DNA of 64,000 nt from an uncultured Planctomycetales bacterium (GCA_964595465.1 CAZQQI010000006.1:655-64654), one strand, 5' to 3'. Shown: positions 1,304-56,240, counted from the stretch's first letter. Numbers and translations are program-made. Notes: generated from the letters alone by a model not told the origin.

Positions 1304-1319
1304 TGGCACGCTGTTTGCT
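1304..1319 (+). promoter_or_regulatory. Sigma-54 (RpoN) -24/-12 promoter: TGGCACG-N4-TTGCT
   Basis: A near-consensus TGGCACGctgtTTGCT lies about 30 nt upstream of the 1349 ATG, with the RBS aaggagaaag in between. A sigma-54-dependent NtrC-type regulator is encoded at 17033-18484 in the same window. Confidence 0.65.
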
Positions 1320-3048: not shown

Positions 3049-3078
3049 CGTGTATGACATTAAAGAAAGTGGTGCGAT

Positions 3079-3723: not shown

Positions 3724-3775
3724 TTCACAATAAGCCATCTACAGAAGGTGTTTTTATAGATCGGGGAGAATAATA

Positions 3776-4762: not shown

Positions 4763-4785
4763 ACATATCCTTGAGGAGGGTAGAT

Positions 4786-6180
4786 ATGTTCACAGCGTTA
4801 AAGCGCCGGAAAATTGTTCAGTTTTTACGTCAGACCGATTATGACCGCCTGCTTCGCCATGGCGAACAGCGTTTGATCAAGGCCTTTCAGCGCGCTGCCC
4901 GTCAGGTCCCGGCTTACCGTCAGATCCTCAGTCAGAATCATGTCCCGGTCAGCGCCATTCAGCGTCCGGAGCATTTTCAGGCCCATGTCCCCGTCATTGA
5001 CAAAAAGATCTTTTCCGCTTACCCGTTAGCAGATCTTTGCTGCGGCGGGCGTCTGGACAAGGTCGCTGCGGTGATGTCCAGTTCCGGATTTTCCGGTTCA
5101 TTCTCCTATTCTCTGAGCACGCAGTCCGATGCCGAACTGACCGCGGATGTTGTCGATGCCTTGCTCGATGCCCGTTTTGATGCCTTTAACCGCAAGACTT
5201 TATTTATCAGCTGCCTGGGCATGGGGGTCAAGGTGCCGACACGGCTTCCCCTGGCTGAGGTCGGACAGAGGGCCGATATCGCTCTGGCGGTGATCGAAAA
5301 ACTGCAGTTATATTACGAGCAGATCATCATTATTGGCAACACCTATTTTTTGAAAAAGCTTATTGAAGACGGGCGGGACCGCGGCCTCGATTGGCCGCGT
5401 CTGAGGGTCCATGTGATCATGGGGGAAGACTGGTTTCCCGAATCCTACCGGGATTATCTGTCTTCTCTGCTGGGGATCTCAATGGATCATCCGCATACCA
5501 GTTCAGTTATGTCCACGATGGGGATCAGTGAGCTGGGTATCAGTCTCTTTCAGGAAGATGAGGATCTGGTGCGCATTCGGCGTATGGCGGTCAAGAATGA
5601 ACAGTTTTCCCGCGCTCTGTTCGGCCGGAACCTGCCGTTTACGCCGCTGATCTTTTATTACAATCCTCTTCAGGTCTATGTTGAGGAGGTGGAGGGTGAA
5701 CTGGTTTTTTCGAATCTTTCGCCTGACGCCATCCTCCCGTTGATGCGCTATGCCCCGCATGATCTCGGCGGCTGTATTAGCCGGGCGCGCTTAAAAAATG
5801 TGCTTCATGATTTTGGTGTCAGTGAGCTGATGCCGTCTTGGCCTCTTCCGCTGGTCTGGGTAGGAGGACGCGCCGGCAAGACCCTTGATGTCGACGGGCA
5901 AAATGTTACCCCGGAACAGATCAAAGCGCTGCTCTACAGCCATCCCGCGTTGGCGCAGGTGACAACGGGATATTTTCATTTATCCGGCAAACGACGGAAG
6001 CTGGTGATTGAGATCCAGCTAAAACCGGGGATCGACCCGGATGTCACTTTGCACAAAACAGCCCAGTCTGTTTTTTCGGGACTCACTCCCCGCAAACCGG
6101 AGATCACGATCTATCCGTACATAGAATTCCCCTACGGGATCGAACTGAATTATGAAGGAAAGTTCCGTTATGTGGGGTAG
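4786..6180 (+). CDS. Adenylate-forming enzyme, phenylacetate-CoA ligase/CapK/F390-synthetase-like (ANL superfamily)
   Basis: The ORF opens at TTG 4771 but the first ATG with an RBS is 4786. It has a P-loop-like SSSGFSGSFSYS motif and the overall PaaK/CapK-like architecture. It lies downstream of the exosortase/PEP-CTERM genes. Confidence 0.5.
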   Translation: MFTALKRRKIVQFLRQTDYDRLLRHGEQRLIKAFQRAARQVPAYRQILSQNHVPVSAIQRPEHFQAHVPVIDKKIFSAYPLADLCCGGRLDKVAAVMSSSGFSGSFSYSLSTQSDAELTADVVDALLDARFDAFNRKTLFISCLGMGVKVPTRLPLAEVGQRADIALAVIEKLQLYYEQIIIIGNTYFLKKLIEDGRDRGLDWPRLRVHVIMGEDWFPESYRDYLSSLLGISMDHPHTSSVMSTMGISELGISLFQEDEDLVRIRRMAVKNEQFSRALFGRNLPFTPLIFYYNPLQVYVEEVEGELVFSNLSPDAILPLMRYAPHDLGGCISRARLKNVLHDFGVSELMPSWPLPLVWVGGRAGKTLDVDGQNVTPEQIKALLYSHPALAQVTTGYFHLSGKRRKLVIEIQLKPGIDPDVTLHKTAQSVFSGLTPRKPEITIYPYIEFPYGIELNYEGKFRYVG

Positions 6181-6273: not shown

Positions 6274-7416
6274 TCAGAAATGCCATTTCAGCTGAACGTA
6301 ATACACATTTTCTGAATCCCCGAATTCCGTGTCGTTATCTCCCCAATAAAATTGAATGCCAGCCCCGATGTCCAGGTTTTGCCGGACGTTATAATTGATT
6401 TCGGGGTTATACGCCGCGCTGCCGCCTTCCAGATCACAGATAAAAAATTGATCCCAAATGATAAGCGGGGTGAATTTGTACTGCCACCAGAGGCTGGCGA
6501 GGTGTTTTCTCAGCGAGAGCAGATCGCGGGAATTCCTCAGGGAGTTGAGCAGGGCAAGGGGGTTATTTTCATCTGCGCCGCCGTTGTAAAAATATTCGAT
6601 CAGTCCGTAGGTCTTTTGATCAAAGGTGTAATCCAGACCCACTGCGGCCCGGGCAAACTGCCGGTTATCGTCCATGGTCGTATGCGTGACCTCTCCCCGG
6701 AAACCGGCATCCTGCAGATACCCGTCCCAGGTCAATCCGAAAATATCCGCTTCCTGCCGGTTGGCTGCGATGAAAGCGGTGTCAAAATCCCCAAGTTGTG
6801 TGTAGGCTTTGAGTCCGTAGGAGGAATCCTCCGCCCCGTCACCGGGCAGGGCAACCAGAGAGACCCCTTTAAATCCGTCGGGAGAATAGTTGAATGTGAC
6901 CCCGTCGATGCCGATACGTTCATCATATTCCAAGTCTAGTGGTCCGTTGGGATTAAAAAGGTCTGCCGGGCTGTAAAACCGCAGGTTGCCCCAGTCGACA
7001 GCCTGTTTTCCCGCCGCGGCCTGCCATTGCGGGGAATAATATTTCACGTATAAACGGTAGATCTTGTGATTGAGGTACAGATGGTCATTATCGACTGAAG
7101 CATGGTCCAGGTCAACATTGACGGCTTGATCCTGTTCTTTGTTGTGAATGGTCTGAAAATCTCCGGTATTGCCGAAGTCGTGAATGAGCGCCTCATTGTC
7201 CACCGCGATATAAAACTGCCAGGGATCATTGTGCGCCTCCATGGTCAGGCGCAGGCGGTTGAGATTGGCATTGATATCCTCTTCACTGTAAACGGATCGT
7301 GTATAAGTGTGGAGATTTTTGTAATATCCGCCGAAATCAAAGACCGGCGCGGCCTGGGCAGGGAGGGCTGAGAAAAGAAGAGTGGATAATACCGGGATAA
7401 GGCAGAGGTAGCGCAT
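6274..7416 (-). CDS. Outer-membrane beta-barrel protein (uncharacterised family), last gene of the Lol-like export operon
   Basis: It has a signal peptide (…ALPAQA), alternating amphipathic beta-strand-like segments rich in Y/G/D/N, and a C-terminal …QLKWHF with terminal aromatic Phe, typical of BAM substrates. Confidence 0.55.
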   Translation of the reverse strand: MRYLCLIPVLSTLLFSALPAQAAPVFDFGGYYKNLHTYTRSVYSEEDINANLNRLRLTMEAHNDPWQFYIAVDNEALIHDFGNTGDFQTIHNKEQDQAVNVDLDHASVDNDHLYLNHKIYRLYVKYYSPQWQAAAGKQAVDWGNLRFYSPADLFNPNGPLDLEYDERIGIDGVTFNYSPDGFKGVSLVALPGDGAEDSSYGLKAYTQLGDFDTAFIAANRQEADIFGLTWDGYLQDAGFRGEVTHTTMDDNRQFARAAVGLDYTFDQKTYGLIEYFYNGGADENNPLALLNSLRNSRDLLSLRKHLASLWWQYKFTPLIIWDQFFICDLEGGSAAYNPEINYNVRQNLDIGAGIQFYWGDNDTEFGDSENVYYVQLKWHF

Positions 7417-7420
7417 GGGA

Positions 7421-8110
7421 TCACTCCTTGGTTTGGTCGAGAATCATACCGTCGCGGATATGGACCAGACGGCGGGCCTTATCCATAACCAGAGGATCGT
7501 GGGTGGAAAAGACAAAGGTGACCTCTTTGTCCGCATTCAATTCTTTCATGAGTTCAATCAAAGATTCGGATGTGGCCGAATCCAGGTTGGCCGTCGGTTC
7601 ATCAGCGATAATAAGGCGGGGTTCGGCGACAATAGCCCGGGCCACAGCCACGCGCTGCTGCTGACCTCCGCTCATCTCATTGGGGAAGCGGTCAAGATAA
7701 TCCGCTAAACCGACGCGGCTTAAGGTGTCCTGTGCCCGGCGGGTGCGTTCTTCCGGCGCAAGGCCCTGCAGCAGCATAACGTATTCGACATTTTCCCGTG
7801 CGGTCAGGGTGTTGATCAGGTTATAGGCCTGAAAAATAAAGCCCAGAGAGCGGAGGCGGAAATCAGAAAGCTGGTCAGGACTGAGACTGGAAATATCCCG
7901 GTCTGCAAAATGTACCGTTCCGGCGGTCGGGTTGTCCAGGGCGCCGATGATATTCAGCAGAGAACTTTTGCCTGATCCAGAAGGTCCGGCAATGGCCAGG
8001 AAATCTCCGGAAAAGATATCCAGGGTGACCCCGCGCAATGCCGGTGTGGTGATGTCGCGTCCGGTCGTGTAGGTCTTGTGCAGATTGTTGATCCGTAATA
8101 ATGGTGTCAT
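7421..8110 (-). CDS. ABC transporter ATP-binding protein, LolD/MacB-ATPase-like
   Basis: Walker A GPSGSGKSSLL, ABC signature LSGGQQQRVA and Walker B LIIADEPT are present. It overlaps the upstream permease gene by 4 bp (ATGA). Confidence 0.85.
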   Translation of the reverse strand: MTPLLRINNLHKTYTTGRDITTPALRGVTLDIFSGDFLAIAGPSGSGKSSLLNIIGALDNPTAGTVHFADRDISSLSPDQLSDFRLRSLGFIFQAYNLINTLTARENVEYVMLLQGLAPEERTRRAQDTLSRVGLADYLDRFPNEMSGGQQQRVAVARAIVAEPRLIIADEPTANLDSATSESLIELMKELNADKEVTFVFSTHDPLVMDKARRLVHIRDGMILDQTKE

Positions 8111-9333
8111 AAGCTTCTTATCGCCTCAATGGGTTTCAGACGGGAGGCCAGCCAGGCCGGATAAATCGATACGCAGATGCTGGTAATCAGCACCAGGGCC
8201 GTGGAGACGGTTGTGTACATGGTGTTCAGACGGGGATAAATGACAGGGTCCATATAAAATGATGACAGCGCGCTGGTAAAAATTCCTAGATCAATGCCCT
8301 GGACATGAAACAGGGCAGTCAGGGAAATGCCCAGAATGGCGCCCATTAGACTGCCGATGCATCCCAGAAAGACGGATTCCCAGGCCACCATGGTCACGAT
8401 CTGCCCCCGCTTGGTACCCAGGGCCAGCAGAATGCCGAATTCGCGTGTGCGTTCTAGAACGCCCATGAGAACGGTGTTGAGGATGCCGATCGCCACGACG
8501 ATCATGACGATAAAGACAATGACCCAGATAAAGGTATTATCAAAATCGATCCATTGTTTCATGATTGGGGATACGGTCTGCCAGGGCAATATTTCCAGAG
8601 TATCAGTGTCCAGACGGGACCGGATCAGGTCTGCCATCTCTTGTGCCCGGTCGCCGCGTTGCAGTTTCAGCGCGATTTCCGATGTTTTATCCTGCATGAC
8701 AAAAAGGTTTTCCGCGGCCCGGTGGGTGATCAGGACCAGTCCGCGGTCGATCTCTTCGACTCCGCTGTCGATCAATCCGGAAATATAATAAGCGCTCGCG
8801 GCAATGCTGCCGTCCAGGGCCTGGGACATGATTACGATCTTGTCGTCAAGGCTGACCTTCAGGCCAGCGGCCAGATCTTTGCCGATCACGATGGTGTCGT
8901 TTTCTTCCGCAGAAAGAAAATTCCCCTCGCCCAGGCTTTTGTGCAGGCTGCTGATCCGGGTTTCTTTGTCCGGGTCCACCCCCAGGATCAGGGCACCGGA
9001 AGAAGATTCTGAAGAACTGATCAGGCCCTGAGCCCGGATACGCGGAGCGGAATAGCGGACACCCTCGATCGCGCGGATCCTTTCGAGCAGAGGGGCGGGG
9101 TCCTCAATATAGGTCTCAAGTTTTTGATGTTCGTGGAATCCCCGGGCATGGATCTGAATGTGTCCGATGGACAGGGACGTGTAATTATCGATCATCTGGA
9201 AGTGGGCGCCTTCGACGAAAGACCAGATAAAGATCAGTGCGCCGAGGCCGAAACCCACCGCGGATATGGTAATGAGCGAGCGCTTGCGGTTGCGGGTGAT
9301 GTTTCGCCAAGCTATCTTAAGGAAAGTGCGCAT
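8107..9333 (-). CDS. ABC transporter permease, FtsX/LolC/LolE family
   Basis: It has an N-terminal transmembrane helix, a large periplasmic domain and three C-terminal transmembrane helices (FtsX topology). Its 4-bp overlaps with both neighbours are typical of the MacB/LolCDE type II ABC exporters. Confidence 0.8.
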   Translation of the reverse strand: MRTFLKIAWRNITRNRKRSLITISAVGFGLGALIFIWSFVEGAHFQMIDNYTSLSIGHIQIHARGFHEHQKLETYIEDPAPLLERIRAIEGVRYSAPRIRAQGLISSSESSSGALILGVDPDKETRISSLHKSLGEGNFLSAEENDTIVIGKDLAAGLKVSLDDKIVIMSQALDGSIAASAYYISGLIDSGVEEIDRGLVLITHRAAENLFVMQDKTSEIALKLQRGDRAQEMADLIRSRLDTDTLEILPWQTVSPIMKQWIDFDNTFIWVIVFIVMIVVAIGILNTVLMGVLERTREFGILLALGTKRGQIVTMVAWESVFLGCIGSLMGAILGISLTALFHVQGIDLGIFTSALSSFYMDPVIYPRLNTMYTTVSTALVLITSICVSIYPAWLASRLKPIEAIRSL

Positions 9334-9335
9334 AC

Positions 9336-10091
9336 TTAAGGAGTTCGTTTGAGATACGTCCGTGTAAAAATATTCGGTTCGATCGGGGTGTTGTATTCGA
9401 CTTGCTCGACAACGATAACGGTCTGGTGCCCCTTTTTGATCTGCGAGGTCATGGTCCAGGTCCGGGGGATCTCTCGGTCGTTGACCGGCCCGATATCGCT
9501 GTAGGTCAGGACTTTCACCAGCCGTCCCCGTTCATCATAATATTCTTCTTTGAGAGGGACCGCGTCGGACTGGCGGACCCAGAGCAGGATCTTTCCCCAT
9601 ATGACCGGGGCGTCGGGTTTGGGGTCCAGGCGGATCTTATAGGCCTCGTTTCCGCTGATGGTTTCTTGGCCGACGATCGTATGGGTGTAATCATGCACGA
9701 TACTGCTTTGTTTGACCAGGTCATCGTTAGTGAAATCGCTGCCCATCCAGGGCTGAAGCATCATAGACGGAGGGATCTTGATGATCTTCTCGACGCTGGG
9801 GAGGTAGTTCCACATTTCATTACCGATGCGCAGAGACCCGATGCCGGCTTCTTTGGCCGGGGAGAGAATGCGGATGAAGGTTTTTTCTTTATCCTGGCTC
9901 CAAACATTCAGCGTGAGCTGGCGTTCCCAGCGGGGCGTGGTAACTGTCATGCGGTAAGTTCCGGCATTGCTCTGGCCCTGCATAATATTATCAGACCGGC
10001 GGACCAGTTCTGTAGCATCCGGCGCCTGCGCGATAGCGGTTCCCGCCGTGAAAAGTATCATTAGAAAGGGAATTAATCGTTTGCCGTTCAT
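9336..10091 (-). CDS. Outer membrane lipoprotein-sorting protein, LolA-like fold (periplasmic)
   Basis: It has a signal peptide (…TAIAQA). Its size and motifs are consistent with the LolA/RseB-like 'outer membrane lipoprotein-sorting protein' family (…EMWNYLPS…QPWMGSDFTNDDL…). It is the first gene of an operon with the FtsX permease, the ABC ATPase and the outer-membrane protein. Confidence 0.55.
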   Translation of the reverse strand: MNGKRLIPFLMILFTAGTAIAQAPDATELVRRSDNIMQGQSNAGTYRMTVTTPRWERQLTLNVWSQDKEKTFIRILSPAKEAGIGSLRIGNEMWNYLPSVEKIIKIPPSMMLQPWMGSDFTNDDLVKQSSIVHDYTHTIVGQETISGNEAYKIRLDPKPDAPVIWGKILLWVRQSDAVPLKEEYYDERGRLVKVLTYSDIGPVNDREIPRTWTMTSQIKKGHQTVIVVEQVEYNTPIEPNIFTRTYLKRTP

Positions 10092-10097
10092 GGTTTG

Positions 10098-10109
10098 TAT
10101 GATATCATA
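10098..10109. promoter_or_regulatory. Perfect 12-bp palindrome TATGATATCATA in a 75-bp divergent intergenic region
   Basis: It sits between the divergent starts at 10091 (-) and 10167 (+). A -10-like TATAAT lies at 10134-10139. Confidence 0.3.
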
Positions 10110-10166
10110 AAATCAAAGCTGAGCGAACCTTTTTATAATAAAATCAATGACTTAGAGCAGTCTATC

Positions 10167-10883
10167 ATGGGTGAACAATTTTCTTTTTTGTGTGTCGATC
10201 CATCGGATCAATCCATGATGGAGCAGATCTACCGCCTCCGTTTGAGGGTGTACGGGGAAGAGTGCGGATTTATCGATCCTAAGGATTATCCCGAAGGCAT
10301 GGAACGGGATGGCTATGATGATCAGGCAGCGCATTTTGTGGCTCTGGGAGAGCCCGGAGATGTGATCGGATATTTGCGTATGATCCTTCCGGGGAAATTA
10401 CAGCTTCCTTTTGAAGAGCATTTTCCTGAGCTGCAGATCGATCCGGATATCCGTACGGCCGGCGCCTACAGCGAGATTTCCCGGCTGGTGATCAGCAAAC
10501 GCCTGCGCCGTCGTCGTCATGATGGAATATATTATGAGCCGGAATTTCAGGACCGTGTGGTCAAGGCTGAAGACGGGCAGGAATTTATGCGCCGCGCTAA
10601 ACCCATGGCATTCGGTCTGTACCGGGAGATGTATCAGGAAAGCAAGCGCCGCGGGTTGAAAGAATGGTATTCGATTATGGAAAAGACGCTTTGGATCCTG
10701 CTTAAAGTCCATGGCTTTAATTTTAAATGTGTCGGAGAAGAGGTTGATATTTTCGGCCCAGTCCGTCCGTACCGGGGAAATATTGCCGGGATTGAAGAAG
10801 AGATTCGGACTAAGCATCCGGATTTTTGGGCTTATTTTACTGGAGATTCCTCCTGGGGTGTGCAGACGTCCCGGGTTTTTTAA
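10167..10883 (+). CDS. N-acyl amino acid synthase, PEP-CTERM/exosortase-system-associated type (LuxI/GNAT-like fold)
   Basis: The first ATG is at 10167 (MGEQFSFLCV…). The upstream TTG at 10095 would leave only 3 nt to the divergent gene. The family-typical N-terminus (…EQIYRLRLRVYGEECGFID…HFVALGEPGDVIGYLRMI) matches the exosortase-associated N-acyl amino acid synthase family. Confidence 0.6.
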   Translation: MGEQFSFLCVDPSDQSMMEQIYRLRLRVYGEECGFIDPKDYPEGMERDGYDDQAAHFVALGEPGDVIGYLRMILPGKLQLPFEEHFPELQIDPDIRTAGAYSEISRLVISKRLRRRRHDGIYYEPEFQDRVVKAEDGQEFMRRAKPMAFGLYREMYQESKRRGLKEWYSIMEKTLWILLKVHGFNFKCVGEEVDIFGPVRPYRGNIAGIEEEIRTKHPDFWAYFTGDSSWGVQTSRVF

Positions 10884-10898
10884 TCTGCGGTTTTTATT

Positions 10899-13850
10899 AT
10901 GACCTTATCCTCGCGTCATATCTATCAGGCGTTTCTGGATTCCGCGGAAGCTCACCGGGAAAAAGATGCCGTCCTTTATCAGCACGGCAAAAATTTCATT
11001 TCACAGAATTATGCGTGGCTGGAACGCCGTTCCCGCATCATGGCCCGGCAATTATGCCGAAAGCATCATATTCGACCAGGCGATCGGGTGGCACTGCTTT
11101 TGGAAAATCATCCGGAATTTGCCTGGTCTTTCCTGGGGGTTCTGGCGGCGGGAGGCGTTGTTGTTCCGCTTGATGTCCAGTATTCACCAGGTCAGATCCT
11201 GCGCATCTGTGAGCATGCCGGAGCGAAAATCGTGATCTCCCAGACGTCCCTGGATTATTCTCAATCCACCAAAGGTTCACTGCAATGGATTTTCGTGAAC
11301 GATCTGTCCGGCGATGAAAATGTTCCGTCCCAGCCATTATCAGACATAGAGGTGCCGGGAGGAGACGATCTCGCGGCCCTGTTCTATACTTCCGGGACGA
11401 CCGGAGAGCCGAAGGGGGTGATGCTGACTCACAATAATCTTCTGGCCAATGTTGACGCGATCCGGAAGATTAAGGTTGCGGTTGCTGATGATGTGGTCCT
11501 TTCCATGCTGCCTCTGCATCATACCTATGCGTTTACCACGACATTACTGACGCCGCTGTTGATCGGGGCCACGATCGCGTATCCCAAAAGCATTGCTTCA
11601 TCTGATCTGATGTACTGCATTAAGCAGGCCTGTGTGACGTTAATGGTCAGTGTCCCTGAAGTCTTCAAACTTCTACACCAGGCAGTTAAAAGGCAGATGG
11701 GTTCTCTGCCGCTCATGAAGCGCGCAGTTGCCCACTATGGCGGACAGCTGGCGTTGCCTCTGCGTAAACATATGCGCGTAAACGCCGGTAAAATGATTTT
11801 TCGGGATGTGCACCGCATCTTCGGCCCCTGTCTGAGGATGATGATCTCCGGCGGGGCTAAGCTGGATGCAGAGGTCGTCCGGGATTTTTACCGCTGGGGG
11901 TTTGCCCTGATCGAAGGATATGGCCTGACCGAGACATCTCCGGTCGTGGCGTTTTCTCTGCCGGACGATGCGCGCTTTGGTTCCGTCGGGAGGCCCTTGC
12001 CGGGAGTTGAAGCCGCCCTTTACGGGACGGATGAGAAAGGGGAGGGGGAAATCATTGTCCGCGGGCCGAATGTCATGCAGGGATATTACCGCAGTCCGGA
12101 AGAAACCCGCAAGGTCTTGCGTGACGGGTGGCTGTTTACCGGAGATTTGGGATCCATCGAGGCTGACGGATCGCTGACCATTAACGGACGGAAAAATGAT
12201 ATGATCGTGCTGAGCAGCGGGGAGAATATCTATCCGGCTGAGTTGGAAGAGATCTATGCCCGGACCCCGATGATCAAAGAGATCGGTGTGTTTGCCCGCG
12301 ATCCCGTTCATGAGGGCAGAGCTCAGCAGCTGGCAGCGGTTATTGTTCCGGATATCGGATATTTTCAGGAGATAGGCGAAGTCGATATCCGCGGAAAGCT
12401 CAAATGGGAATTAGAAAATATTTTTTCTTCTCTGCCCTCATATAAGCGGCTGGCCGGTTTTGTCATTTTCCGTCAGGATCTTCCCCGCACCCGGTTGGGC
12501 AAGCTCAAACGTTTTGAACTGCCGCATATTTATACTACAATCCAATCCTCCGGGAAGCTCGAACCATCCCGGGAGGAGGCATCCGTGGATAAACAGCCGG
12601 AACTTTTAACCCACGGGCCTCAGCTGGCGCTCACGTATTTGCAGAAACGTCTGGACCGCGAGGTTTCCATGTCGGATCATATTGAATTGGACCTGGGTCT
12701 GGATTCGCTGGAGCGCATTGAGGTCTTGCTGGAGATGCAGGAGAGCCTAGGGCTGGAAGTGCCGGAAGAAGATCTGATGGCGTTTTTTTCCTGCCAGACG
12801 GTGGGCGAGCTGTTTGAACGCCTTAAGGAGCTCCTTCGCCATCAGGCCGGCGCCGGGGATAAAGACGAAGATATGACCCTGCTGACCCAAAGCGCGCTTG
12901 CCTATATCAATAAACAGCTTAATGTTTCGGCTCAGCCGCAAGATCATCTTGAGCTCGATCTGGGTTTAGATTCTCTGGGCAGGATCGAATTGCTTATGGG
13001 CCTGCAGGAGCATCTTGGTCTTGAACTGAGTGAAGACGAGGCGATGTCGTTTTTTCAGTGCCAGACCATCAGCGAACTGATGTCCCGTCTGCAGGTGGTG
13101 ATCGGAAAAGAAACCATTCATGGTCACTGGGGTGAAGTCTCCTGGGAAGATATTATGAGGCAGGACCCTTCGGAACAGAGGAAGGAATCGCTGAGGCTGA
13201 ACGGGACAGGAATTGGGGGGAAGGCACTGAATTTTTTTCTGGCGATGCTACTTAAGATGCTTTTTAAGGTATTCTTTTTATTACGTATCGAAGGGAGGGA
13301 GCGTTTGCCTGATAAGGGGCCCTATGTGATCTGCCCCAATCATACTACGTATTTGGATGCTTTGTTCGTTATGGCCGCTCTGCCGTTCCCGGTTCTTCTG
13401 CAGACCTTTTTTCTCGGCGACGATCGTTTTTTGTCTCGAGGTCCGTTGAGATACTGTCACCACGTTTTGAGGCTGATCCCGATTAAATTCACCTTTGATA
13501 TGGTCGACGCGCTGCGTACCTGTGCGTATGTTCTCAAGCATAATCGGATCGTGTGCTATTTTCCGGAAGGACAGCGCACCGTCGGTCATGAGATCGGAAA
13601 GTTTAAGAAGGGCATTGGGATTCTGCTGAAAGAGGCCGCAGTCCCGGCCGTACCGGTTTACCTTAAGGGGGGAGAGAAGGTCTGGCCTCGAGGACGCAAA
13701 TGGCCCCGGCCCGGGAGGATCCGTGTGGTGGTCGGCGAGCCGGTTTATCCTGAAACGCTGCATTTTGAATTGACCGCTCAGGAAGACCCCTATATGCGTA
13801 TCGCTGAAAAGCTGAAAGAAAAGATGAGAAACCTTAAAGATACTTATTAA
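10899..13850 (+). CDS. Four-domain fusion: acyl-AMP/CoA ligase (AMP-binding), ACP, ACP, then 1-acyl-sn-glycerol-3-phosphate acyltransferase-like (PlsC/LPLAT) domain
   Basis: The AMP-binding core motif is YTSGTTGEPKGVMLTHNN. Two phosphopantetheine attachment sites are LDLGLDSLERIE (Ser codon at 12705-12707) and LDLGLDSLGRIE (Ser codon at 12974-12976). The C-terminal acyltransferase carries the HX4D motif (CPNHTTYLDA) and FPEGQRT. Confidence 0.8.
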   Translation: MTLSSRHIYQAFLDSAEAHREKDAVLYQHGKNFISQNYAWLERRSRIMARQLCRKHHIRPGDRVALLLENHPEFAWSFLGVLAAGGVVVPLDVQYSPGQILRICEHAGAKIVISQTSLDYSQSTKGSLQWIFVNDLSGDENVPSQPLSDIEVPGGDDLAALFYTSGTTGEPKGVMLTHNNLLANVDAIRKIKVAVADDVVLSMLPLHHTYAFTTTLLTPLLIGATIAYPKSIASSDLMYCIKQACVTLMVSVPEVFKLLHQAVKRQMGSLPLMKRAVAHYGGQLALPLRKHMRVNAGKMIFRDVHRIFGPCLRMMISGGAKLDAEVVRDFYRWGFALIEGYGLTETSPVVAFSLPDDARFGSVGRPLPGVEAALYGTDEKGEGEIIVRGPNVMQGYYRSPEETRKVLRDGWLFTGDLGSIEADGSLTINGRKNDMIVLSSGENIYPAELEEIYARTPMIKEIGVFARDPVHEGRAQQLAAVIVPDIGYFQEIGEVDIRGKLKWELENIFSSLPSYKRLAGFVIFRQDLPRTRLGKLKRFELPHIYTTIQSSGKLEPSREEASVDKQPELLTHGPQLALTYLQKRLDREVSMSDHIELDLGLDSLERIEVLLEMQESLGLEVPEEDLMAFFSCQTVGELFERLKELLRHQAGAGDKDEDMTLLTQSALAYINKQLNVSAQPQDHLELDLGLDSLGRIELLMGLQEHLGLELSEDEAMSFFQCQTISELMSRLQVVIGKETIHGHWGEVSWEDIMRQDPSEQRKESLRLNGTGIGGKALNFFLAMLLKMLFKVFFLLRIEGRERLPDKGPYVICPNHTTYLDALFVMAALPFPVLLQTFFLGDDRFLSRGPLRYCHHVLRLIPIKFTFDMVDALRTCAYVLKHNRIVCYFPEGQRTVGHEIGKFKKGIGILLKEAAVPAVPVYLKGGEKVWPRGRKWPRPGRIRVVVGEPVYPETLHFELTAQEDPYMRIAEKLKEKMRNLKDTY

Positions 13851-13917: not shown

Positions 13918-14796
13918 GTGATCATGACGACAAAATTCTCACCCGGACAGTTCTTTTCTTTGCTCCGTTCCGCAGTTCAGACCATCATTCACCATCCTCT
14001 TATCCTTTATCCTTTCACAATTTTATTTATGCTTCAGCTCTTCATTATGGAGATCCTGTTTTTTGCTCCACGCTATCCGTTATCGCAATTCTTTTCCCCG
14101 GTTATAAGCAGGCTTGCCGGAGAGCAGTTTCTGCATTATCCCTTAAATTTCATGCTTCTTAACCGCTGGTTTCAGAGTATTCAAATCCCCTTTTATCTGT
14201 TTGTGTCCTCGTTTTTTATCGGCGCTGCGGTTTACGCGATTTATTTGATCAATCGGGATGAAAACTTGAATTGGGGGAAGGTTTTCAAGAGGACGCTTAA
14301 GCAGTATATTCATTTGGTGGTAGCCGCGGCGATTTCGGTTGGTTTTGTGTATATCCTCAGCTGGCTTTATAGCCTGCTGGTGCAGCGCGCCTTGCAGATA
14401 CGCTCAACCGCGGGGATCTATTTTATGATCAAGAAGGCCGTGATCCTGGGCGCGCCCTATGCCAATTTATTATTTTCTACGTTGATCATTACTATGTTTG
14501 CGTTCGTTATTCCTATTATCATGATCGAGGGGAAAAAGGTTTTTTCAGCCTTTGCTCAAAATTTTAAGGTGCTTGGCGGGGTTTTCTGGATGTTATTCCT
14601 GGCGATGCTGGCATCCGGTTTGTTTTACCTCCCTGTCCTTTTATTGCGTTCCAACGCGGAGTGGGGCAGGAGCGTTTTTAGTCCGGAGATGTGGCAGATC
14701 CTCATGATCGCGGGTGTGGCCTTAATGCTCGTGATCGATGCCGTGCAGTATACCGCTATAACTATGACGTACTTGCTAAAAAAGGATGCGGAATGA
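13918..14796 (+). CDS. Polytopic membrane protein, function unknown
   Basis: It has about 7 predicted transmembrane helices and no recognisable catalytic motif. It overlaps the next gene by ATGA. Confidence 0.5.
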   Translation: MIMTTKFSPGQFFSLLRSAVQTIIHHPLILYPFTILFMLQLFIMEILFFAPRYPLSQFFSPVISRLAGEQFLHYPLNFMLLNRWFQSIQIPFYLFVSSFFIGAAVYAIYLINRDENLNWGKVFKRTLKQYIHLVVAAAISVGFVYILSWLYSLLVQRALQIRSTAGIYFMIKKAVILGAPYANLLFSTLIITMFAFVIPIIMIEGKKVFSAFAQNFKVLGGVFWMLFLAMLASGLFYLPVLLLRSNAEWGRSVFSPEMWQILMIAGVALMLVIDAVQYTAITMTYLLKKDAE

Positions 14797-15692
14797 AAAA
14801 GACACTTATCATCGGTTTGACGGTGCTGCTTGGATTGTTTGTGGTATTCACCGTTATGGATAAAAGCGATTATGCCCTTGAAAAAAGATTGTGGCGTGTG
14901 CAGAAGGATTTTACCGAGCTGTCGCAAGACCCTCAGTCAGCGCCGGCTGAGCAGTACGCGTCTCTTGCGCGGCGTTATCGCCGTCTGATCGAGAAATATC
15001 CGGATTCCCGTCTGGTCCCCATGATCTATCTGCAGATCAGCCGGCTTTACTTTATGCAGGAGGCCTATGACCGGGCGCGTGATATTCTGCAGGAATTGAA
15101 AGACCGATATCCTGACCGGAATGAACTCCAGGCCGAGGCTCTGCTTTATATCGGTAATGCCTATGAATCGGAAGGGGATTTTTCACAGGCAGTCAAGACC
15201 TATCAAAAGATACAGCAGCGCTATCCGCATACCGAATGGGGGATCGGCATGCCGCTGTATTTGGCTGATGTTTACTTGCGTGCCGGGAAGCTAGACGAGC
15301 ATCGGCAGGCGTTGGAAAACGCGGCCGCCTATTATCGCGGGATTGTCGCCGACGAAGGGGCGGATCTTGGGCATCAGCTTAGGGCCTACCGTTCGCTGGT
15401 GGCGGCTTACCTGGCTCAGGAAAAGTGGAATGACGCTGTTTCGGTTTTGAAAAATGCACTTTTCCGCTACGCAAAATCCGAATACCTGACGCCCCGGAGT
15501 GCGGGTGTTCTGATCCGCTCGATCGCTCAGATCAGTGTGACCCGGCTAGAGAACCCTGACCGCGCGATCGGGATTTATCAGGAGTTCATCCGTGAGCATC
15601 CGGATCACCCCTTGTCGCCTACGTTGAAGAAGCTGATCGCTGCTATGCAGCAGCAGGGCGTGACCCAAAACGGATTGCCGGAAGGCGAATAA
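14793..15692 (+). CDS. TPR repeat protein with N-terminal membrane anchor/signal
   Basis: The in-frame ATG at 14793 gives MKKTLIIGLTVLLGLFVVF… It contains multiple TPR-like helical repeats (…AEALLYIGNAYESEGDFSQAVKTYQKIQQRYP…). The ORF-track start at 14691 lies inside the previous gene. Confidence 0.6.
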   Translation: MKKTLIIGLTVLLGLFVVFTVMDKSDYALEKRLWRVQKDFTELSQDPQSAPAEQYASLARRYRRLIEKYPDSRLVPMIYLQISRLYFMQEAYDRARDILQELKDRYPDRNELQAEALLYIGNAYESEGDFSQAVKTYQKIQQRYPHTEWGIGMPLYLADVYLRAGKLDEHRQALENAAAYYRGIVADEGADLGHQLRAYRSLVAAYLAQEKWNDAVSVLKNALFRYAKSEYLTPRSAGVLIRSIAQISVTRLENPDRAIGIYQEFIREHPDHPLSPTLKKLIAAMQQQGVTQNGLPEGE

Positions 15693-15696
15693 TATT

Positions 15697-16998
15697 ATGA
15701 GTTCAGATGCCCTGCCGGATTATGTCCGACAACTTACGCAAACAGATCTTTTCAATCAGATCAGCGCGATCTGCGCCGCTGTTAATGAAGAGACGGATTC
15801 TGACGGTCTGTTAGAGGTGTCTCTCCAGCGGCTGCTGCGGCTGTTTGGTGCCCGGCGAGGATCGGTCTATATTTTCGACGAATCCCGAGAGGAATTGGTG
15901 CTGAAATCTGCTATCGGGCTGACGGTTGAAGAAGGCGATTATAAAATTAAGCGCCCGGGGGAGGGAGTGGTCGGAAAAGTTGCCGAACTCAAAAAGCCGA
16001 TCTTTGTTAAAGATATCTCCACTGACGAGCGTTTCGAAAATTATAAAGCGCGTTCAAGTTATGAGACGCCGTCGTTTTTGTGTGTTCCTCTTTTGGTTAA
16101 GGATGAACTGATCGGGGTGATCAACGTCGCGGATAAAGAATCGGGAACGCTGTTCGGCGAGGATGAACTGCAGTTGATGGATTTTCTGGCGGCTCAGATT
16201 GCACTGAATTACCGCAGGATCGCTTTATACCAAAATGTGCAGAACATTGTCGAACGTTCTCGTAAGCTCGAAGATGAACTGGGGCGGACCAGTGAAGAGC
16301 GCTCCCGTCTGAAGCGGCAGGTTGTCGTCCACGAACGTCTGGCTTCTATTGGGAAGCTGGCCGGAGGCATCGCTCATGAATTCAATAATCCGCTGGACGG
16401 AGTTATGCGCTATACACAGCTCTGTCTCCAGCAGGTCGGTGATGATGGGATCCTGCGGGGGTATTTGCTTGAGATTAAGCATGGCTTGAACCGCATGGCT
16501 AACATTGTCCGCAGTCTCCTGGCGTGTTCGCGGGGTGCGGCTCAGGGAGAAGAGAATACAATCCATCCTGAAGCGGCGATAGAGCAGGCCCTGCAGTCAA
16601 TCCAGACCGATGCTGTTCATAAAAATATTGACATAAAAATTAATGTCGACGCGGGATTGCCGGAAATGACCGATATGGGGCTGGAAAGGATTCTGGTCAA
16701 TCTCCTGCGCAACGCCGTTGAGGCTGTCGATAGCGGGGGAGAAGTAGGGGTTTCTGCCGGGTTAGAGGATGGGGGGCAGCTCGCGATCCGTATCTGGGAT
16801 GACGGTCCCGGCATCGCTGTTCCGGACGACCTTGATAAGATCTTTGAGCCGTTTTATACGACAAAGGATATTGAAAAGGGCTGCGGACTCGGGCTGACTA
16901 TTGTCGCTGAGATCGTAAAAATGTATGACGGAAAATTAACAGTCGAAAGCTATCCAGATAAAAAGACCGTATTTACTATCCGATTACCGGTCGCCTAG
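15697..16998 (+). CDS. Sensor histidine kinase, soluble, with GAF domain, HisKA and HATPase_c
   Basis: It has a GAF-like N-terminal half, the H-box HEFNNPLDG, and N/G boxes (LLRNAVEA, DDGPGI, GCGLGL). There are no transmembrane segments. Confidence 0.8.
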   Translation: MSSDALPDYVRQLTQTDLFNQISAICAAVNEETDSDGLLEVSLQRLLRLFGARRGSVYIFDESREELVLKSAIGLTVEEGDYKIKRPGEGVVGKVAELKKPIFVKDISTDERFENYKARSSYETPSFLCVPLLVKDELIGVINVADKESGTLFGEDELQLMDFLAAQIALNYRRIALYQNVQNIVERSRKLEDELGRTSEERSRLKRQVVVHERLASIGKLAGGIAHEFNNPLDGVMRYTQLCLQQVGDDGILRGYLLEIKHGLNRMANIVRSLLACSRGAAQGEENTIHPEAAIEQALQSIQTDAVHKNIDIKINVDAGLPEMTDMGLERILVNLLRNAVEAVDSGGEVGVSAGLEDGGQLAIRIWDDGPGIAVPDDLDKIFEPFYTTKDIEKGCGLGLTIVAEIVKMYDGKLTVESYPDKKTVFTIRLPVA

Positions 16999-17032
16999 TT
17001 GTTCCGGTTAGCTGCAACAGAAAGTGTGTGGT

Positions 17033-18484
17033 ATGGATAAAGAACATAAAAGCCGTTATAACGTGCTGATCGTTGATGATGAACCGCTGATCCGTGAATC
17101 ATTGTATGAATCTTTGCGTATTGACGGGTACCGTGCTCATATGGCCCCGACCGCTGAAGAGGCTATGGACATGATCCGTAAGATGGACATCTCGATCGTT
17201 TTGACTGATATGAAGCTGCCCGGACGAAGCGGCCTGGATTTAATATCCGATATTAAATTATATAACGAGGATATTGAGGTGATCCTGATCACAGGATTCG
17301 GTTCGATCGATACGGCAGTTGAAGCGATGCGTAAGGGCGCGGACGACTATATTACCAAGCCTGTGAACGACGAGGAGATCAAGCAGCGCATTGAAAAGAT
17401 CATCAATCATAAAATCGTAATGGAAGAGAACCGGCGTCTGCGTCAGCTCTTGGCAGATGCCAATCCCCGTTCCTGCGGAGAAATGCTGGGTGTCAGTGCG
17501 CCGATGCAGAAAGTGTATCACATCATCGAATCCGTGGCCAATTCCAATGCTACCATTTTGGTGACCGGGGAGAGCGGAACCGGAAAGGGTCTCGCTGCCC
17601 GGGCGATTCATGAACATGATGACTCCCGCCGGGATAAGCCGTTTGTCGAGGTCAGCTGCGGTGCCTTGTCTGAGACGCTTTTGGAAAGTGAGCTGTTCGG
17701 CCATGTTAAGGGTGCGTTTACCGGGGCGATCCGTGATAAGGAAGGGCGCTTTGAATACGCCCGTGGAGGAACAATATTCCTTGACGAGATTGACTCGTTT
17801 TCCCCAATGCTGCAGGTTAAGCTTCTCCGGGTTCTGCAGGATGGTGTTTTTGAGCGGGTGGGAGATAATGTGACGCGCAAAACCGACGCGCGCATTGTTG
17901 TCGCTACGAACAGGGATTTGCCGGAATTGGTCGAAAAGGGAGAATTCCGTGAAGACCTTTATTATCGTATCAATGTGATCGCCGTCCGCATGCCGCCGCT
18001 GAGAGAGCGTAAAGACGATCTGGAGATGCTGATTGAACATTTTGTCAATTTTTACAGTCAGAAAAACAAAAAGCAGATCAACGGCGTTTCCGATGATGTG
18101 ATCAAATTGTTCAGCCAATATCCCTGGCCGGGGAATATCCGTGAACTGGAAAATGCTATTGAGGGTGCTGTCATTATGTGCAAAGGCGATGAGATCGATC
18201 GCTGGGATATCCCGAGTTCTACAAAATTTGAACAGGCCGATCCCGGTCGGATAAAGATTGATGAAGCTGAACACGGCGGATCGGAAGAGAGCCAAGATCT
18301 TGAGGGCACGTCTTTGAAAGAGGCGATTCAGCGTCCGGAACGTGATCTGATCATTTCTGTTCTTGAAAGTTGTGATTGGAATCGAAATCAGGCTGCTGAG
18401 CGCCTGGAAATCAATCGGACGACACTCTACAATAAAATGAAAAAATACAACATCGAATTTAAAAAGCCCGGACGTTCTAAATGA
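17033..18484 (+). CDS. Sigma-54-dependent response regulator (NtrC family): receiver, AAA+ sigma-54 activator and Fis-type HTH domains
   Basis: The receiver has LIVDDEP…D. The AAA+ domain has GESGTGKGLAARAIH, the GAFTGA loop (KGAFTGA) and ESELFGH. The C-terminus is a Fis-type HTH (…AAERLEINRTTLYNKMKKY). ATG 17033 is the likely start; the ORF track's 17024 is GTG. Confidence 0.85.
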   Translation: MDKEHKSRYNVLIVDDEPLIRESLYESLRIDGYRAHMAPTAEEAMDMIRKMDISIVLTDMKLPGRSGLDLISDIKLYNEDIEVILITGFGSIDTAVEAMRKGADDYITKPVNDEEIKQRIEKIINHKIVMEENRRLRQLLADANPRSCGEMLGVSAPMQKVYHIIESVANSNATILVTGESGTGKGLAARAIHEHDDSRRDKPFVEVSCGALSETLLESELFGHVKGAFTGAIRDKEGRFEYARGGTIFLDEIDSFSPMLQVKLLRVLQDGVFERVGDNVTRKTDARIVVATNRDLPELVEKGEFREDLYYRINVIAVRMPPLRERKDDLEMLIEHFVNFYSQKNKKQINGVSDDVIKLFSQYPWPGNIRELENAIEGAVIMCKGDEIDRWDIPSSTKFEQADPGRIKIDEAEHGGSEESQDLEGTSLKEAIQRPERDLIISVLESCDWNRNQAAERLEINRTTLYNKMKKYNIEFKKPGRSK

Positions 18485-21128: not shown

Positions 21129-21209
21129 ATTTCGGTTTGTCCTTTCGTTGATGAGGATGAGGAATAATACCTGGCGTACAGACTGCAGCAAAAAAAATAT
21201 CTGTATCGT

Positions 21210-55237: not shown

Positions 55238-55238
55238 T

Positions 55239-56234: not shown

Positions 56235-56240
56235 AAATAA

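What the first reader, a model, noticed from the sequence alone, without database searches (positions are those of the whole stretch)
10167..13850. Self-contained aminolipid-type cassette: N-acyl amino acid synthase plus ligase-ACP-ACP-PlsC four-domain fusion
Gene 2 fuses four domains in one 983-aa protein:
- an acyl-AMP ligase,
- two tandem phosphopantetheine carrier domains, both with DSL Ser sites,
- a PlsC/LPLAT acyltransferase with the HX4D motif.

This is the reverse order of the known Aas (acyltransferase plus acyl-ACP synthetase) and adds tandem ACPs. Gene 1 is an exosortase-associated N-acyl amino acid synthase. N-acyltransferase plus PlsC-like O-acyltransferase is the logic of OlsB/OlsA and GlsB/GlsA aminolipid synthesis. 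Here the pair also carries its own fatty-acid activation and carrier, so it could make an N-acyl (acyloxyacyl) amino acid lipid without fatty acid synthase or ACP from primary metabolism. It lies beside exosortase genes and a Lol-like exporter. This points to a dedicated lipid that may serve as the acceptor or anchor for exosortase-processed proteins or EPS.
Basis: partly seen in the sequence, partly recalled or inferred. Interest (0 to 1): 0.85.

Follow-up and report, generated by a model that had tools for sequence, protein, structure and literature searches.

The report
Exosortase-linked acyl amino acid lipid module
In uncultivated Omnitrophota bacteria, an enzyme that joins a fatty acid to an amino acid sits beside a large self-loading fatty-acid transferase and a lipid exporter, next to a cell-surface protein-sorting system; each part belongs to a known family, but I found no description of this combination, which points to a dedicated exported lipid.

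Summary
[quoted passage not shown] Gene 2 (10899-13850) is a 983-aa acyl-AMP ligase / ACP / ACP / PlsC-type acyltransferase with intact Ser603, Ser692 and NHTTYLD.

The fusion is not a new architecture. It is collinear and homologous with ElbD-type proteins that carry an extra N-terminal fatty-acyl reductase (FAR) domain. FAR-less ElbD homologues are already noted in the literature, and the one-ACP form occurs in many phyla without a NAS.

What is specific here is a clade, mostly Omnitrophota. In 8 of 9 homologues looked up, a NAS lies 3-64 nt upstream of the fusion. A CysZ/SLC44-fold membrane protein and a TPR / histidine kinase / sigma-54 regulator set usually follow. Nearby are a LolCDE-like ABC (or MMPL) exporter, a LolA-like carrier, an outer-membrane barrel and PEP-CTERM genes. 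The tandem ACP marks only the closest subclade.

Elsewhere the NAS pairs with a homologue of window 4771-6180 (PaaK-like) and the same exporter, without the fusion.

Best reading: a dedicated pathway for an exported acylated amino-acid lipid. The OlsB/OlsA-like two-chain product and the exosortase-anchor role remain untested inferences. Verdict: new variant of known kinds, moderate interest.

The parts
3..233 (+). C-terminal fragment of the exosortase gene, cut by the window edge
   Evidence: The frame-3 translation aligns by eye with the end of the PF09721 Exosortase_EpsH gene in the syntenic locus L003.
239..880 (+). EpsI-family exosortase-associated protein
   Evidence: TIGR02914 EpsI_fam 81.1 bits, cutoff 42.8.
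1304..1318 (+). Sigma-54 -24/-12 promoter-like site (TGGCACGCTGTTTGC) 30 nt upstream of the priming glycosyltransferase gene
   Evidence: Perfect consensus match. It is the only strong GG-N10-GC site in the intergenic regions tested.
1349..2212 (+). EPS polyprenyl glycosylphosphotransferase (Bac_transf)
   Evidence: TIGR03025 305.4 bits, cutoff 295.55.
2422..4639 (+). Three PEP-CTERM proteins (2422-3048, 3079-3723, 3776-4639)
   Evidence: PEP-CTERM domain hits. C-terminal PEP / hydrophobic / basic tails found by regex.
4771..6180 (+). PaaK-like adenylate-forming enzyme (469 aa); the conserved NAS partner in other lineages
   Evidence: Only weak PaaK similarity (E 4e-7; E 0.003). Homologues lie directly downstream of the NAS in L161, L162, L167, L169 and Acidovorax L089, with E from 2e-40 to 2e-69. 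It is present in most NAS+fusion loci that have enough flank.
6274..7416 (-). Probable outer-membrane beta-barrel protein (380 aa)
   Evidence: Signal-peptide-like N-terminus and C-terminal ...KWHF. No Pfam or NCBIfam family. Conserved next to the ABC genes in related loci. The barrel assignment is an inference from sequence.
7421..8110 (-). LolD-like ABC ATPase
   Evidence: TIGR02211 216.9 bits, below the 307.75 cutoff.
8107..9333 (-). LolCE/MacB-type ABC permease
   Evidence: TIGR02212 154.5 bits, below the 362.45 cutoff. Homologues carry MacB_PCD + FtsX.
9336..10091 (-). Periplasmic LolA_like (TP_0789-like) carrier
   Evidence: PF17131 202.7 bits.
10167..10883 (+). [quoted passage not shown]
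   Evidence: Glu103 in AEISRL is invariant in 25 homologues. PGAP name: PEP-CTERM/exosortase system-associated acyltransferase.
10852..10875 (+). Terminator-like GC hairpin plus T-run at the 3' end of the NAS gene
   Evidence: Consensus scan only. Function not tested.
10899..12533 (+). Gene 2, acyl-AMP ligase domain (residues 1-545)
   Evidence: PF00501 E 1.6e-81 and PF13193. Closest solved structures are fatty-acyl/feruloyl-CoA synthetases.
12612..12851 (+). Gene 2, carrier domain 1 (about residues 572-651; Ser603 at 12705-12707)
   Evidence: PP-binding, LGLDSL, S603 invariant.
12879..13118 (+). Gene 2, carrier domain 2 (about residues 661-740; Ser692 at 12972-12974)
   Evidence: PP-binding best stretch 669-729. 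38/80 identical to ACP1. Present in only 14 of 115 full-length homologues.
13284..13664 (+). Gene 2, PlsC/LPLAT acyltransferase domain (Pfam 796-922; NHTTYLD at 13338-13358). A hydrophobic helix precedes it at about residues 773-793.
   Evidence: PF01553 E 1.2e-19. Motifs invariant. Nearest curated family is the Aas-type acyltransferase domain.
13924..14796 (+). Polytopic membrane protein (290 aa) with a CysZ / PNS1 / SLC44-like transporter fold
14691..15692 (+). TPR protein (true start probably near 14790)
   Evidence: TPR Pfam hits. Conserved position.
15697..19509 (+). Histidine kinase (15697-16998), sigma-54-dependent response regulator (17024-18484) and PocR/GAF protein (18481-19509)
   Evidence: The regulator scores 395 bits on TIGR02915 PEP_resp_reg, below the 502.6 cutoff. 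The set is syntenic in L001-L005, L007 and L170-L172.

Best explanation
This is a conserved operon of an Omnitrophota-centred clade. I read it as a pathway that makes an acylated amino-acid lipid and exports it to the cell envelope or surface, as part of the PEP-CTERM/exosortase matrix system.

Proposed steps:
1. The ligase domain of gene 2 adenylates a free long-chain fatty acid. It loads the chain as a thioester on its own phosphopantetheinylated carrier domain(s). This is inferred from homology; ligase and carrier activity were shown in vitro for ElbD.
2. The NAS (gene 1) uses an acyl-carrier thioester to N-acylate an amino acid. NAS enzymes are acyl-ACP dependent. Use of the in-cis carriers is inferred.
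3. The C-terminal PlsC-type domain, held at the membrane by its hydrophobic helix, transfers a carrier-bound acyl chain to a hydroxyl acceptor. The most economical acceptor is the NAS product, which would give a two-chain lipid as in OlsB/OlsA. This step is inferred and is the weakest.
4. The CysZ/SLC44-fold membrane protein moves the head-group substrate or the lipid across the inner membrane (inferred from fold only).
5. The LolCDE-like ABC pump (an MMPL pump in sister loci), the LolA-like periplasmic carrier and the outer-membrane barrel carry the hydrophobic product outward. This is inferred from families and from the pump swap.
6. The histidine kinase / sigma-54 regulator / PocR-GAF set ties the pathway to EPS and PEP-CTERM gene expression.
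For: Domains and catalytic residues are intact.

Tight, polar coupling of the two genes:
- The NAS is always upstream on the same strand, 3-64 nt from the fusion, in the window and in 8 of 9 homologues looked up.
- The pair stays adjacent when the rest of the cluster is rearranged (L170).
- In a NAS-directed metagenome scan, 19 of 37 NAS loci with at least 3 kb downstream carry the fusion directly downstream.

NAS-linked fusions form one clade in a neighbour-joining tree, apart from NAS-free fusions of other phyla.

Two different NAS types (TIGR03694-type and a FeeM-only type, about 20% identical) occupy the same slot upstream of closely related two-ACP fusions. This suggests a need for 'some NAS' next to the fusion.

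The exporter varies in pump type but always keeps a LolA-like carrier and an outer-membrane protein. Forms seen are an ABC pump with a barrel, and an MMPL pump with DUF1302. This is what one would expect for a very hydrophobic cargo.

The NAS travels with the same exporter even where the fusion is absent.

PEP-CTERM genes occur in 18 of 26 such loci, against 0 of 12 controls.

From the literature:
- NAS enzymes use acyl-ACP (review PMC11631085).
- ElbD ligase and carrier activities were shown in vitro (PMC9131029).
- Disrupting the PEP-CTERM-system NAS gene in Methylomonas LW13 abolished a polysaccharide band (PMC11072679).
Against: - No product is known for any member of this clade.
- The PlsC domain resembles Aas-type phospholipid acyltransferase domains most closely, and nothing marks it as OlsA-like.
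- The aminolipid review notes that NAS products usually lack the 3-hydroxyl needed for further acylation, and that no further acylation has been reported.
- ElbD's acyltransferase activity could not be detected in vitro.
- About half of the NAS loci, including Proteobacteria, lack the fusion entirely, so it is not essential to NAS function.
- The NAS profile matches LuxI-type signal synthases in the PDB better than FeeM.
- The tree is a rough distance tree without support values. NAS-linked and NAS-free sequences came from different scans.
Confidence: 0.45

Rival explanations
1. Donor-supply plus phospholipid remodelling. The ligase-ACP part only provides a private acyl-carrier donor for the NAS (as a dedicated ACP does for FeeM). 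The PlsC domain works like Aas or ElbD on glycerol-based acceptors. The pathway product would then be an ordinary single-chain N-acyl amino acid, exported as a surfactant or biofilm-modifying metabolite. No acyloxyacyl aminolipid would be made.
For: - The PlsC domain's best curated matches are Aas-type acyl-ACP-phospholipid O-acyltransferase domains and AGP_acyltrn.
- The same ligase-ACP-PlsC architecture works without any NAS in many phyla and in a housekeeping context in L006.
- NAS products are generally not known to be further acylated.
- In Stieleria, a NAS cluster containing a PEP-CTERM gene makes secreted N-acyl tyrosine derivatives that alter biofilms (PMC7293339).
Against: - It does not explain why the acyltransferase domain is retained with invariant motifs in every NAS-linked fusion.
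- It does not explain why a LolA-like carrier plus an outer-membrane barrel would be needed for a single-chain amphiphile.
- NAS enzymes function in E. coli with host acyl-ACP (PMC4897644), so a private donor is not obviously needed.
Confidence: 0.28
2. Lipid signal circuit. The LuxI-like NAS, fed or modified by the fusion, makes an acylated signal. The adjacent GAF histidine kinase, sigma-54 regulator and PocR/GAF protein sense it and switch on the EPS and PEP-CTERM genes.
For: - The NAS profile hits LuxI-family AHL synthases best among solved structures and passes Pfam Autoind_synth.
- NAS / fusion / membrane protein / TPR / HK / sigma-54 regulator / PocR-GAF is one co-directional block conserved across loci.
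- In fusion-less lineages the NAS also sits beside an HK, a sigma-54 regulator and a PrsT-like TPR protein.
- rpoN is adjacent in L170 and L171.
- A perfect sigma-54 promoter precedes the EPS priming transferase gene.
Against: - A three-part trans-envelope exporter and a 983-aa loading enzyme are heavy machinery for a diffusible signal.
- No ligand is known for these sensors.
- Co-location of regulators with their target operon is common and need not mean that they sense its product.
Confidence: 0.17
3. Unrelated neighbours. The fusion is a housekeeping Aas/ElbD-like membrane-lipid enzyme that merely lies next to the NAS gene.
For: One homologue in a housekeeping context has no NAS (L006), and neither do any of the fusions from other phyla.
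Against: - The adjacency holds in 8 of 9 look-ups with gaps of 3-64 nt.
- It survives cluster rearrangement.
- NAS-linked fusions form a distinct clade.
- There is a strong PEP-CTERM association: 18 of 26 against 0 of 12.

Confidence: 0.05

Closest known systems
ElbD of Myxococcus xanthus (ether-lipid multidomain enzyme) and its FAR-less homologues
   Same: The order acyl-AMP ligase / ACP / AGPAT-type acyltransferase is collinear. The window protein is 34% identical in the ligase part and 24% in the ACP-acyltransferase part to FAR-ligase-ACP-AT proteins of Acidobacteriota. FAR-less homologues in other phyla are noted in the literature. Self-loading of the carrier was shown for ElbD.
   Different: There is no FAR/reductase domain and no elbB/C/E neighbours. 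The window protein has a second ACP. It is paired with a NAS and set in a PEP-CTERM locus, so there is no reason to expect ether lipids.
Aas (E. coli 2-acyl-GPE acyltransferase / acyl-ACP synthetase) and LplT-Aas fusions
   Same: It combines an acyl-activating ligase with a PlsC-family acyltransferase. The acyltransferase domain's best curated match is the Aas-type domain. A membrane transporter gene is adjacent, as lplT is to aas (the lplT-aas arrangement is from general knowledge).
   Different: The domain order is reversed and the carriers are in cis rather than a free ACP. Scores are far below the equivalog cutoffs (246.5 against 1221). The neighbouring membrane protein has a CysZ/SLC44-like fold, whereas LplT is an MFS transporter (general knowledge).
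OlsB/OlsA and GlsB/GlsA aminolipid pathways
   Same: A PF13444-type N-acyltransferase gene lies next to a PF01553 O-acyltransferase with HX4D.
   Different: According to the review, NAS enzymes fall on a separate branch from aminolipid N-acyltransferases. The O-acyltransferase here is fused to its own ligase and carriers. Nothing indicates a 3-hydroxyacyl donor. The product is unknown.
PEP-CTERM/exosortase-associated N-acyl amino acid synthases (TIGR03694; Craig, Cherry and Brady 2011)
   Same: Gene 1 is a member by HMM score and by context. The genetic link between NAS and PEP-CTERM is already published.
   Different: In the literature I could search, I found no description of the NAS paired with an ElbD-like fusion, a PaaK-like enzyme or a Lol-like exporter. 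I could not read the 2011 paper itself.
LolCDE/LolA lipoprotein transport, and DUF1302/DUF1329/RND envelope-export gene sets
   Same: A MacB-type ABC pump with a LolA-fold periplasmic carrier. Sister loci use MMPL + LolA-like + DUF1302, the set with shared mutant phenotypes in Pseudomonas that has been proposed to export an envelope component.
   Different: All Lol models score below their cutoffs. The carrier is PF17131 LolA_like. The set is locus-specific and interchangeable with an MMPL pump.

Membership tests
TIGR03694 PEP-CTERM/exosortase-associated acyltransferase (NAS) | Score above the curated HMM cutoff | tested here: met
   159.9 bits against 111.95.
TIGR03694 PEP-CTERM/exosortase-associated acyltransferase (NAS) | Genomic association with exosortase and PEP-CTERM genes | tested here: met
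   Exosortase fragment, EpsI and three PEP-CTERM genes lie within 10 kb.
TIGR03694 PEP-CTERM/exosortase-associated acyltransferase (NAS) | Acyl-ACP-dependent N-acylation of an amino acid | not testable with these tools
   Only the conserved core (invariant Glu103, Ser105) could be checked.
ElbD-like multidomain acyltransferases | Collinear ligase / ACP / AGPAT-type acyltransferase, homologous to ElbD-architecture proteins | tested here: met
   Pfam architecture. BLASTP 1e-97 and 5e-20 to L017 in the same order. ElbD itself (Q1DC43) was not available for comparison.
ElbD-like multidomain acyltransferases | N-terminal FAR (NAD_binding_4 / Sterile) reductase domain | tested here: not met
   Absent from the window protein and from all NAS-linked homologues. 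Present in L017 and L021.
ElbD-like multidomain acyltransferases | Role in alkyl ether lipid synthesis with elbB/elbE neighbours | tested here: not met
   The neighbours are the NAS, a membrane protein, a TPR protein and regulators. The lipid phenotype cannot be tested here.
Aas bifunctional acyltransferase / acyl-ACP synthetase | Acyltransferase N-terminal to the ligase, no carrier in cis, equivalog score reached | tested here: not met
   The order is reversed and there are two in-cis ACPs. PRK08633 scores 246.5 against 1221, and PRK06814 scores 195.2 against 1349.
OlsB/OlsA-type aminolipid synthesis | Adjacent PF13444 N-acyltransferase and PF01553 O-acyltransferase with HX4D | tested here: met
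   PF13444 41.3 bits for gene 1; PF01553 70.8 bits and NHTTYLD for gene 2.
OlsB/OlsA-type aminolipid synthesis | N-acyltransferase on the aminolipid (OlsB/GlsB/OlsF) branch, using a 3-hydroxyacyl donor | not tested
   The review places NAS enzymes on a separate branch. I built no tree with OlsB sequences, and donor chemistry cannot be tested here.
LolCDE/LolA lipoprotein-release system | Curated LolD, LolC/E and LolA models reached | tested here: not met
   LolD 216.9 against 307.75; LolCE 154.5 against 362.45; the carrier matches PF17131 LolA_like only.

The most novel reading that the evidence does not exclude
The module may make the missing acceptor lipid of the exosortase reaction. If the NAS acylates a diamino acid, or the product otherwise keeps a free amine, the lipid could attack the exosortase acyl-enzyme intermediate. 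That would give C-terminally lipid-anchored PEP-CTERM proteins. The locus-specific LolCDE-like pump, LolA-like carrier and outer-membrane barrel would then carry these to the cell surface, by analogy with how genuine Lol systems handle lipoproteins (general knowledge). The PaaK-like and ThiF-like adenylating enzymes could activate a carboxylate for such a conjugation. In 2025 the acceptor and the outer-membrane route of PEP-CTERM proteins were still described as unknown.
Probability: 0.1. Interest if true: 0.9.

Novelty: new variant of a known kind. Interest (0 to 1): 0.55.

Why it matters
Two open questions become testable with a small, defined gene set.

1. [quoted passage not shown] The genetic link has been known since 2011. 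A knockout affects polysaccharide band formation. No pathway context has been defined.

2. Can N-acyl amino acids be acylated further into membrane-type aminolipids? The 2024 aminolipid review says this has not been reported.

Here a NAS is translationally close to a PlsC-type acyltransferase that carries its own fatty-acid activation and carriers, next to a trans-envelope lipid exporter. This is the genomic arrangement one would expect if the answer to question 2 is yes.

The module is about 15 kb and could be expressed heterologously. That matters because Omnitrophota are uncultivated. It also gives a functional handle on FAR-less ElbD-like proteins, a large and uncharacterised family (260 clusters at 50% identity at E <= 1e-30 for the ACP-acyltransferase half).

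Tried and rejected
- Reading Craig et al. 2011 (PMC3187218): not held. Its content is cited only through its title and through how other papers describe it.
- Exact look-up of the window's fusion protein in the contig index: not on record. The organism was identified through cluster members instead.
- Genome scan with the fusion alignment. It returned mostly plain ligases and no close Omnitrophota relatives. It was still useful as a sample of NAS-free fusions in other phyla.
- First NAS alignment, which included divergent members: no stretch was conserved enough for a scan. I repeated it with 19 closer sequences.
- Sigma-54 promoter upstream of the NAS operon or the PEP-CTERM genes: none convincing. 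The only strong site precedes the priming transferase gene. My first script indexed the GC dinucleotide wrongly and was corrected.
- 'New kind of fusion': rejected because of the ElbD homology and the wide distribution.
- 'True Lol system': rejected because scores are below the cutoffs and the pump is interchangeable with MMPL.
- Matching contig lengths between the fusion and NAS hit tables gave 17 shared contigs. I did not use this as a frequency estimate, because both lists are truncated and limited by the word index.
- PaaK-like protein: nothing in Pfam and only marginal PDB hits.

Full report
**1. The observation**

The two ORFs are as described. Gene 1 (10167-10883, 238 aa) exceeds the curated cutoff of TIGR03694, 'PEP-CTERM/exosortase system-associated acyltransferase' (159.9 against 111.95 bits). 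It also matches Pfam Acetyltransf_5, Autoind_synth and FeeM.

Gene 2 (10899-13850, 983 aa) has these domains:
- AMP-binding (14-397, E 1.6e-81) and AMP-binding_C;
- two PP-binding stretches;
- a PF01553 acyltransferase (796-922).

Both carriers have LGLDSL (Ser603, Ser692). The acyltransferase has NHTTYLD (814-820) and FPEGQR (888-893). These residues are invariant in 30 homologues. ACP1 and ACP2 are 38/80 identical, so they are a tandem duplication.

NCBI cluster members identify the source as a Candidatus Omnitrophota MAG. PGAP calls gene 2 only 'AMP-binding protein'. No curated NCBIfam model reaches its cutoff on gene 2.

**2. The surroundings**

To the left of the pair:
- an exosortase C-terminal fragment at 3-233;
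- EpsI;
- an EPS priming glycosylphosphotransferase preceded by a perfect sigma-54 promoter match at 1304-1318;
- three PEP-CTERM proteins;
- a PaaK-like adenylate-forming protein at 4771-6180.

On the minus strand lie four genes:
- a probable outer-membrane barrel at 6274-7416;
- a LolD-like ATPase;
- a LolCE/MacB-type permease;
- a PF17131 LolA_like carrier.

All Lol models score below their cutoffs, so this is not the housekeeping Lol system.

Downstream of gene 2:
- a 290-aa polytopic membrane protein with no family;
- a TPR protein;
- a histidine kinase;
- a sigma-54 response regulator resembling the PEP-CTERM-box regulator;
- a PocR/GAF protein.

**3. The fusion is a known architecture**

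More than 100 database proteins share ligase-ACP-PlsC. A species-representative genome scan found full-length examples in Acidobacteriota, Planctomycetia, Bacteroidota, Fusobacterium, Leptospirales and Fibrobacteraceae. None has a NAS nearby.

Two Acidobacteriota examples carry an added N-terminal FAR domain (NAD_binding_4 + Sterile), which is the ElbD architecture. They align collinearly with the window protein: 34% identity over the ligase and 24% over ACP-acyltransferase.

A review of myxobacterial plasmalogen synthesis makes three relevant points (PMC9131029):
- ElbD-like homologues lacking FAR occur in other phyla.
- ElbD's ligase and carrier activities were confirmed in vitro.
- Its acyltransferase activity was not detected.

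Searching the ACP-acyltransferase half against 1.84 billion representatives gave 260 clusters at E <= 1e-30. Most are 870-940 aa with one ACP. Only three matched across both ACPs. Among 115 full-length top hits, 14 have two carrier serines and 97 have one. 'Reverse Aas with carriers' is therefore right as a description, but it is not new. Only the second ACP is unusual.

**4. The pairing with the NAS is specific and conserved**

Contig look-ups of nine homologues (36-47% identical) showed a NAS immediately upstream in eight. It is on the same strand, with gaps of 3-64 nt. The exception, L006, lies among housekeeping genes.

The pair stays together in L170, where the regulator block has moved upstream. 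In a neighbour-joining tree, NAS-linked fusions form one clade. The two-ACP proteins form a subclade, and NAS-free fusions fall outside. This is a rough distance tree and the two groups were sampled differently.

In L001 and L004 the upstream NAS is a different, FeeM-only type, about 20% identical to the window's NAS. It still precedes a closely related two-ACP fusion.

A NAS-directed metagenome scan gave 37 loci with at least 3 kb downstream. Nineteen carry the fusion directly downstream, and 16 of 32 shorter loci show the start of the ligase. PEP-CTERM-type ORFs occur in 18 of 26 NAS+fusion loci of at least 12 kb, and in none of 12 NAS-free fusion loci.

**5. The module is wider than the finding**

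Most NAS+fusion loci with enough flank also carry homologues of the PaaK-like gene, the barrel, LolD, LolCE and LolA-like.

L001 and L004 replace the ABC pump and barrel with MMPL + LolA-like + DUF1302. In Pseudomonas, DUF1302/DUF1329/RND genes share mutant phenotypes and were proposed to export an envelope component.

In NAS loci without the fusion, one of three arrangements is seen:
- The NAS is directly followed by a homologue of the PaaK-like protein. This holds for L161, L162, L167, L169 and a complete Acidovorax genome, with E from 2e-40 to 2e-69.
- The NAS abuts a LolD / LolCE / LolA-like / DUF1302 / ThiF block.
- The NAS sits with a PEP-CTERM gene, a kinase, a sigma-54 regulator and a PrsT-like TPR protein.

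The broadly conserved core is therefore NAS + PaaK-like enzyme + trans-envelope exporter + regulators. The ElbD-like fusion and the CysZ-fold membrane protein are an addition in this clade.

**6. Mechanism**

Shown by sequence: intact ligase, carrier and acyltransferase motifs, and an intact NAS core.

Shown elsewhere:
- NAS enzymes use acyl-ACP.
- ElbD loads its own carrier.
- NAS genes are genetically linked to PEP-CTERM systems.
- A NAS mutant loses a polysaccharide band.

Inferred:
- The fusion activates free fatty acid onto its own carriers.
- The NAS and/or the PlsC domain draw on that pool.
- The product is hydrophobic enough to need a periplasmic LolA-like carrier and an outer-membrane protein.

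The OlsB/OlsA-like two-chain product is the most economical way to use both acyltransferases on one molecule, but it is the weakest step. The PlsC domain is nearest to Aas-type phospholipid acyltransferase domains. NAS products usually lack an acylatable 3-hydroxyl. A side-chain hydroxyl (Tyr/Ser/Thr) or a glycerol-based acceptor is equally possible.

Rivals:
- A private acyl-donor supply combined with Aas-like phospholipid remodelling.
- A lipid signal circuit. The NAS profile matches LuxI-type synthases best among solved structures, and the operon carries GAF and PocR sensors.
- Coincidental adjacency, which is disfavoured.

**7. Comparison with what is known, and novelty**

Gene 1 is a member of TIGR03694. 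Gene 2 is an ElbD-like protein that lacks the FAR domain, and it fails the tests for Aas membership. The exporter is Lol-like but is not Lol.

I found no paper describing a NAS paired with an ElbD-like fusion, with the PaaK-like enzyme or with the Lol-like exporter. The key 2011 paper could not be read, which limits this negative result.

The acceptor and the outer-membrane route of exosortase substrates were still described as unknown in 2025. The aminolipid review states that further acylation of N-acyl amino acids has not been reported.

I rate this a new variant of known kinds, with moderate interest (0.55). The strongest novel reading is that the lipid is the exosortase acceptor and the Lol-like set carries the lipidated proteins. 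The evidence does not exclude it, but only co-location supports it (probability about 0.1).

Noticed in passing
window 1304-1318 (+): A perfect sigma-54 -24/-12 consensus (TGGCACGCTGTTTGC) lies 30 nt upstream of the EPS priming glycosyltransferase gene. No comparable site precedes the NAS operon or the PEP-CTERM genes. rpoN lies next to the module in L170 and L171.
   Followed up: partly
window 10852-10875 (+): A terminator-like GC hairpin with a T-run overlaps the last codons of the NAS gene, 24 nt before the fusion's start codon. It could set a NAS:fusion expression ratio. This is a consensus match only.
   Followed up: no
window 4771-6180; L089 10727-12196; L161, L162, L167, L169: A 469-aa PaaK-like adenylate-forming protein with no Pfam family is the gene directly downstream of the NAS in fusion-less lineages, including Acidovorax. 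This NAS + PaaK-like pair appears to be the more widespread conserved unit. I found no description of it.
   Followed up: partly
L001/L004 3137-8584 versus window 6274-10091: The exporter type is swapped between sister loci: MMPL + ThiF + LolA-like + DUF1302 + PilZ against LolCDE-like ABC + LolA-like + an unclassified barrel. The NAS-fusion operon stays the same.
   Followed up: partly
L007, L098-L100, L120, L171, L172 (two copies); L162 (three copies): Many related loci carry two or three tandem NAS paralogues upstream of a one-ACP fusion. The two-ACP loci (window, L001, L003, L004) have a single NAS. A possible inverse relation between NAS copies and ACP copies was not tested.
   Followed up: no
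window 13924-14796: A family-less 290-aa membrane protein folds confidently like CysZ / PNS1 / SLC44 choline-transporter-like proteins. The word-indexed homologue search found only 38 relatives at E <= 1e-3; the few that carry names are from Omnitrophota MAGs.
   Followed up: yes
window 54000-64000: G+C drops from about 0.50 to 0.35-0.41 across a run of about ten co-directional minus-strand ORFs. Not examined.
   Followed up: no
window 20000-24000 (ORF 21210-23354, minus strand, 714 aa): A large ORF has no Pfam or NCBIfam hit, in a stretch with strongly negative AT skew (-0.27 to -0.30) and lower G+C.
   Followed up: no
L008 (MAG labelled Methanosarcinales), 8359-11106: A full-length ligase-ACP-PlsC fusion sits on a contig assigned to an archaeal MAG. 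It could be a binning error or a horizontal transfer.
   Followed up: no
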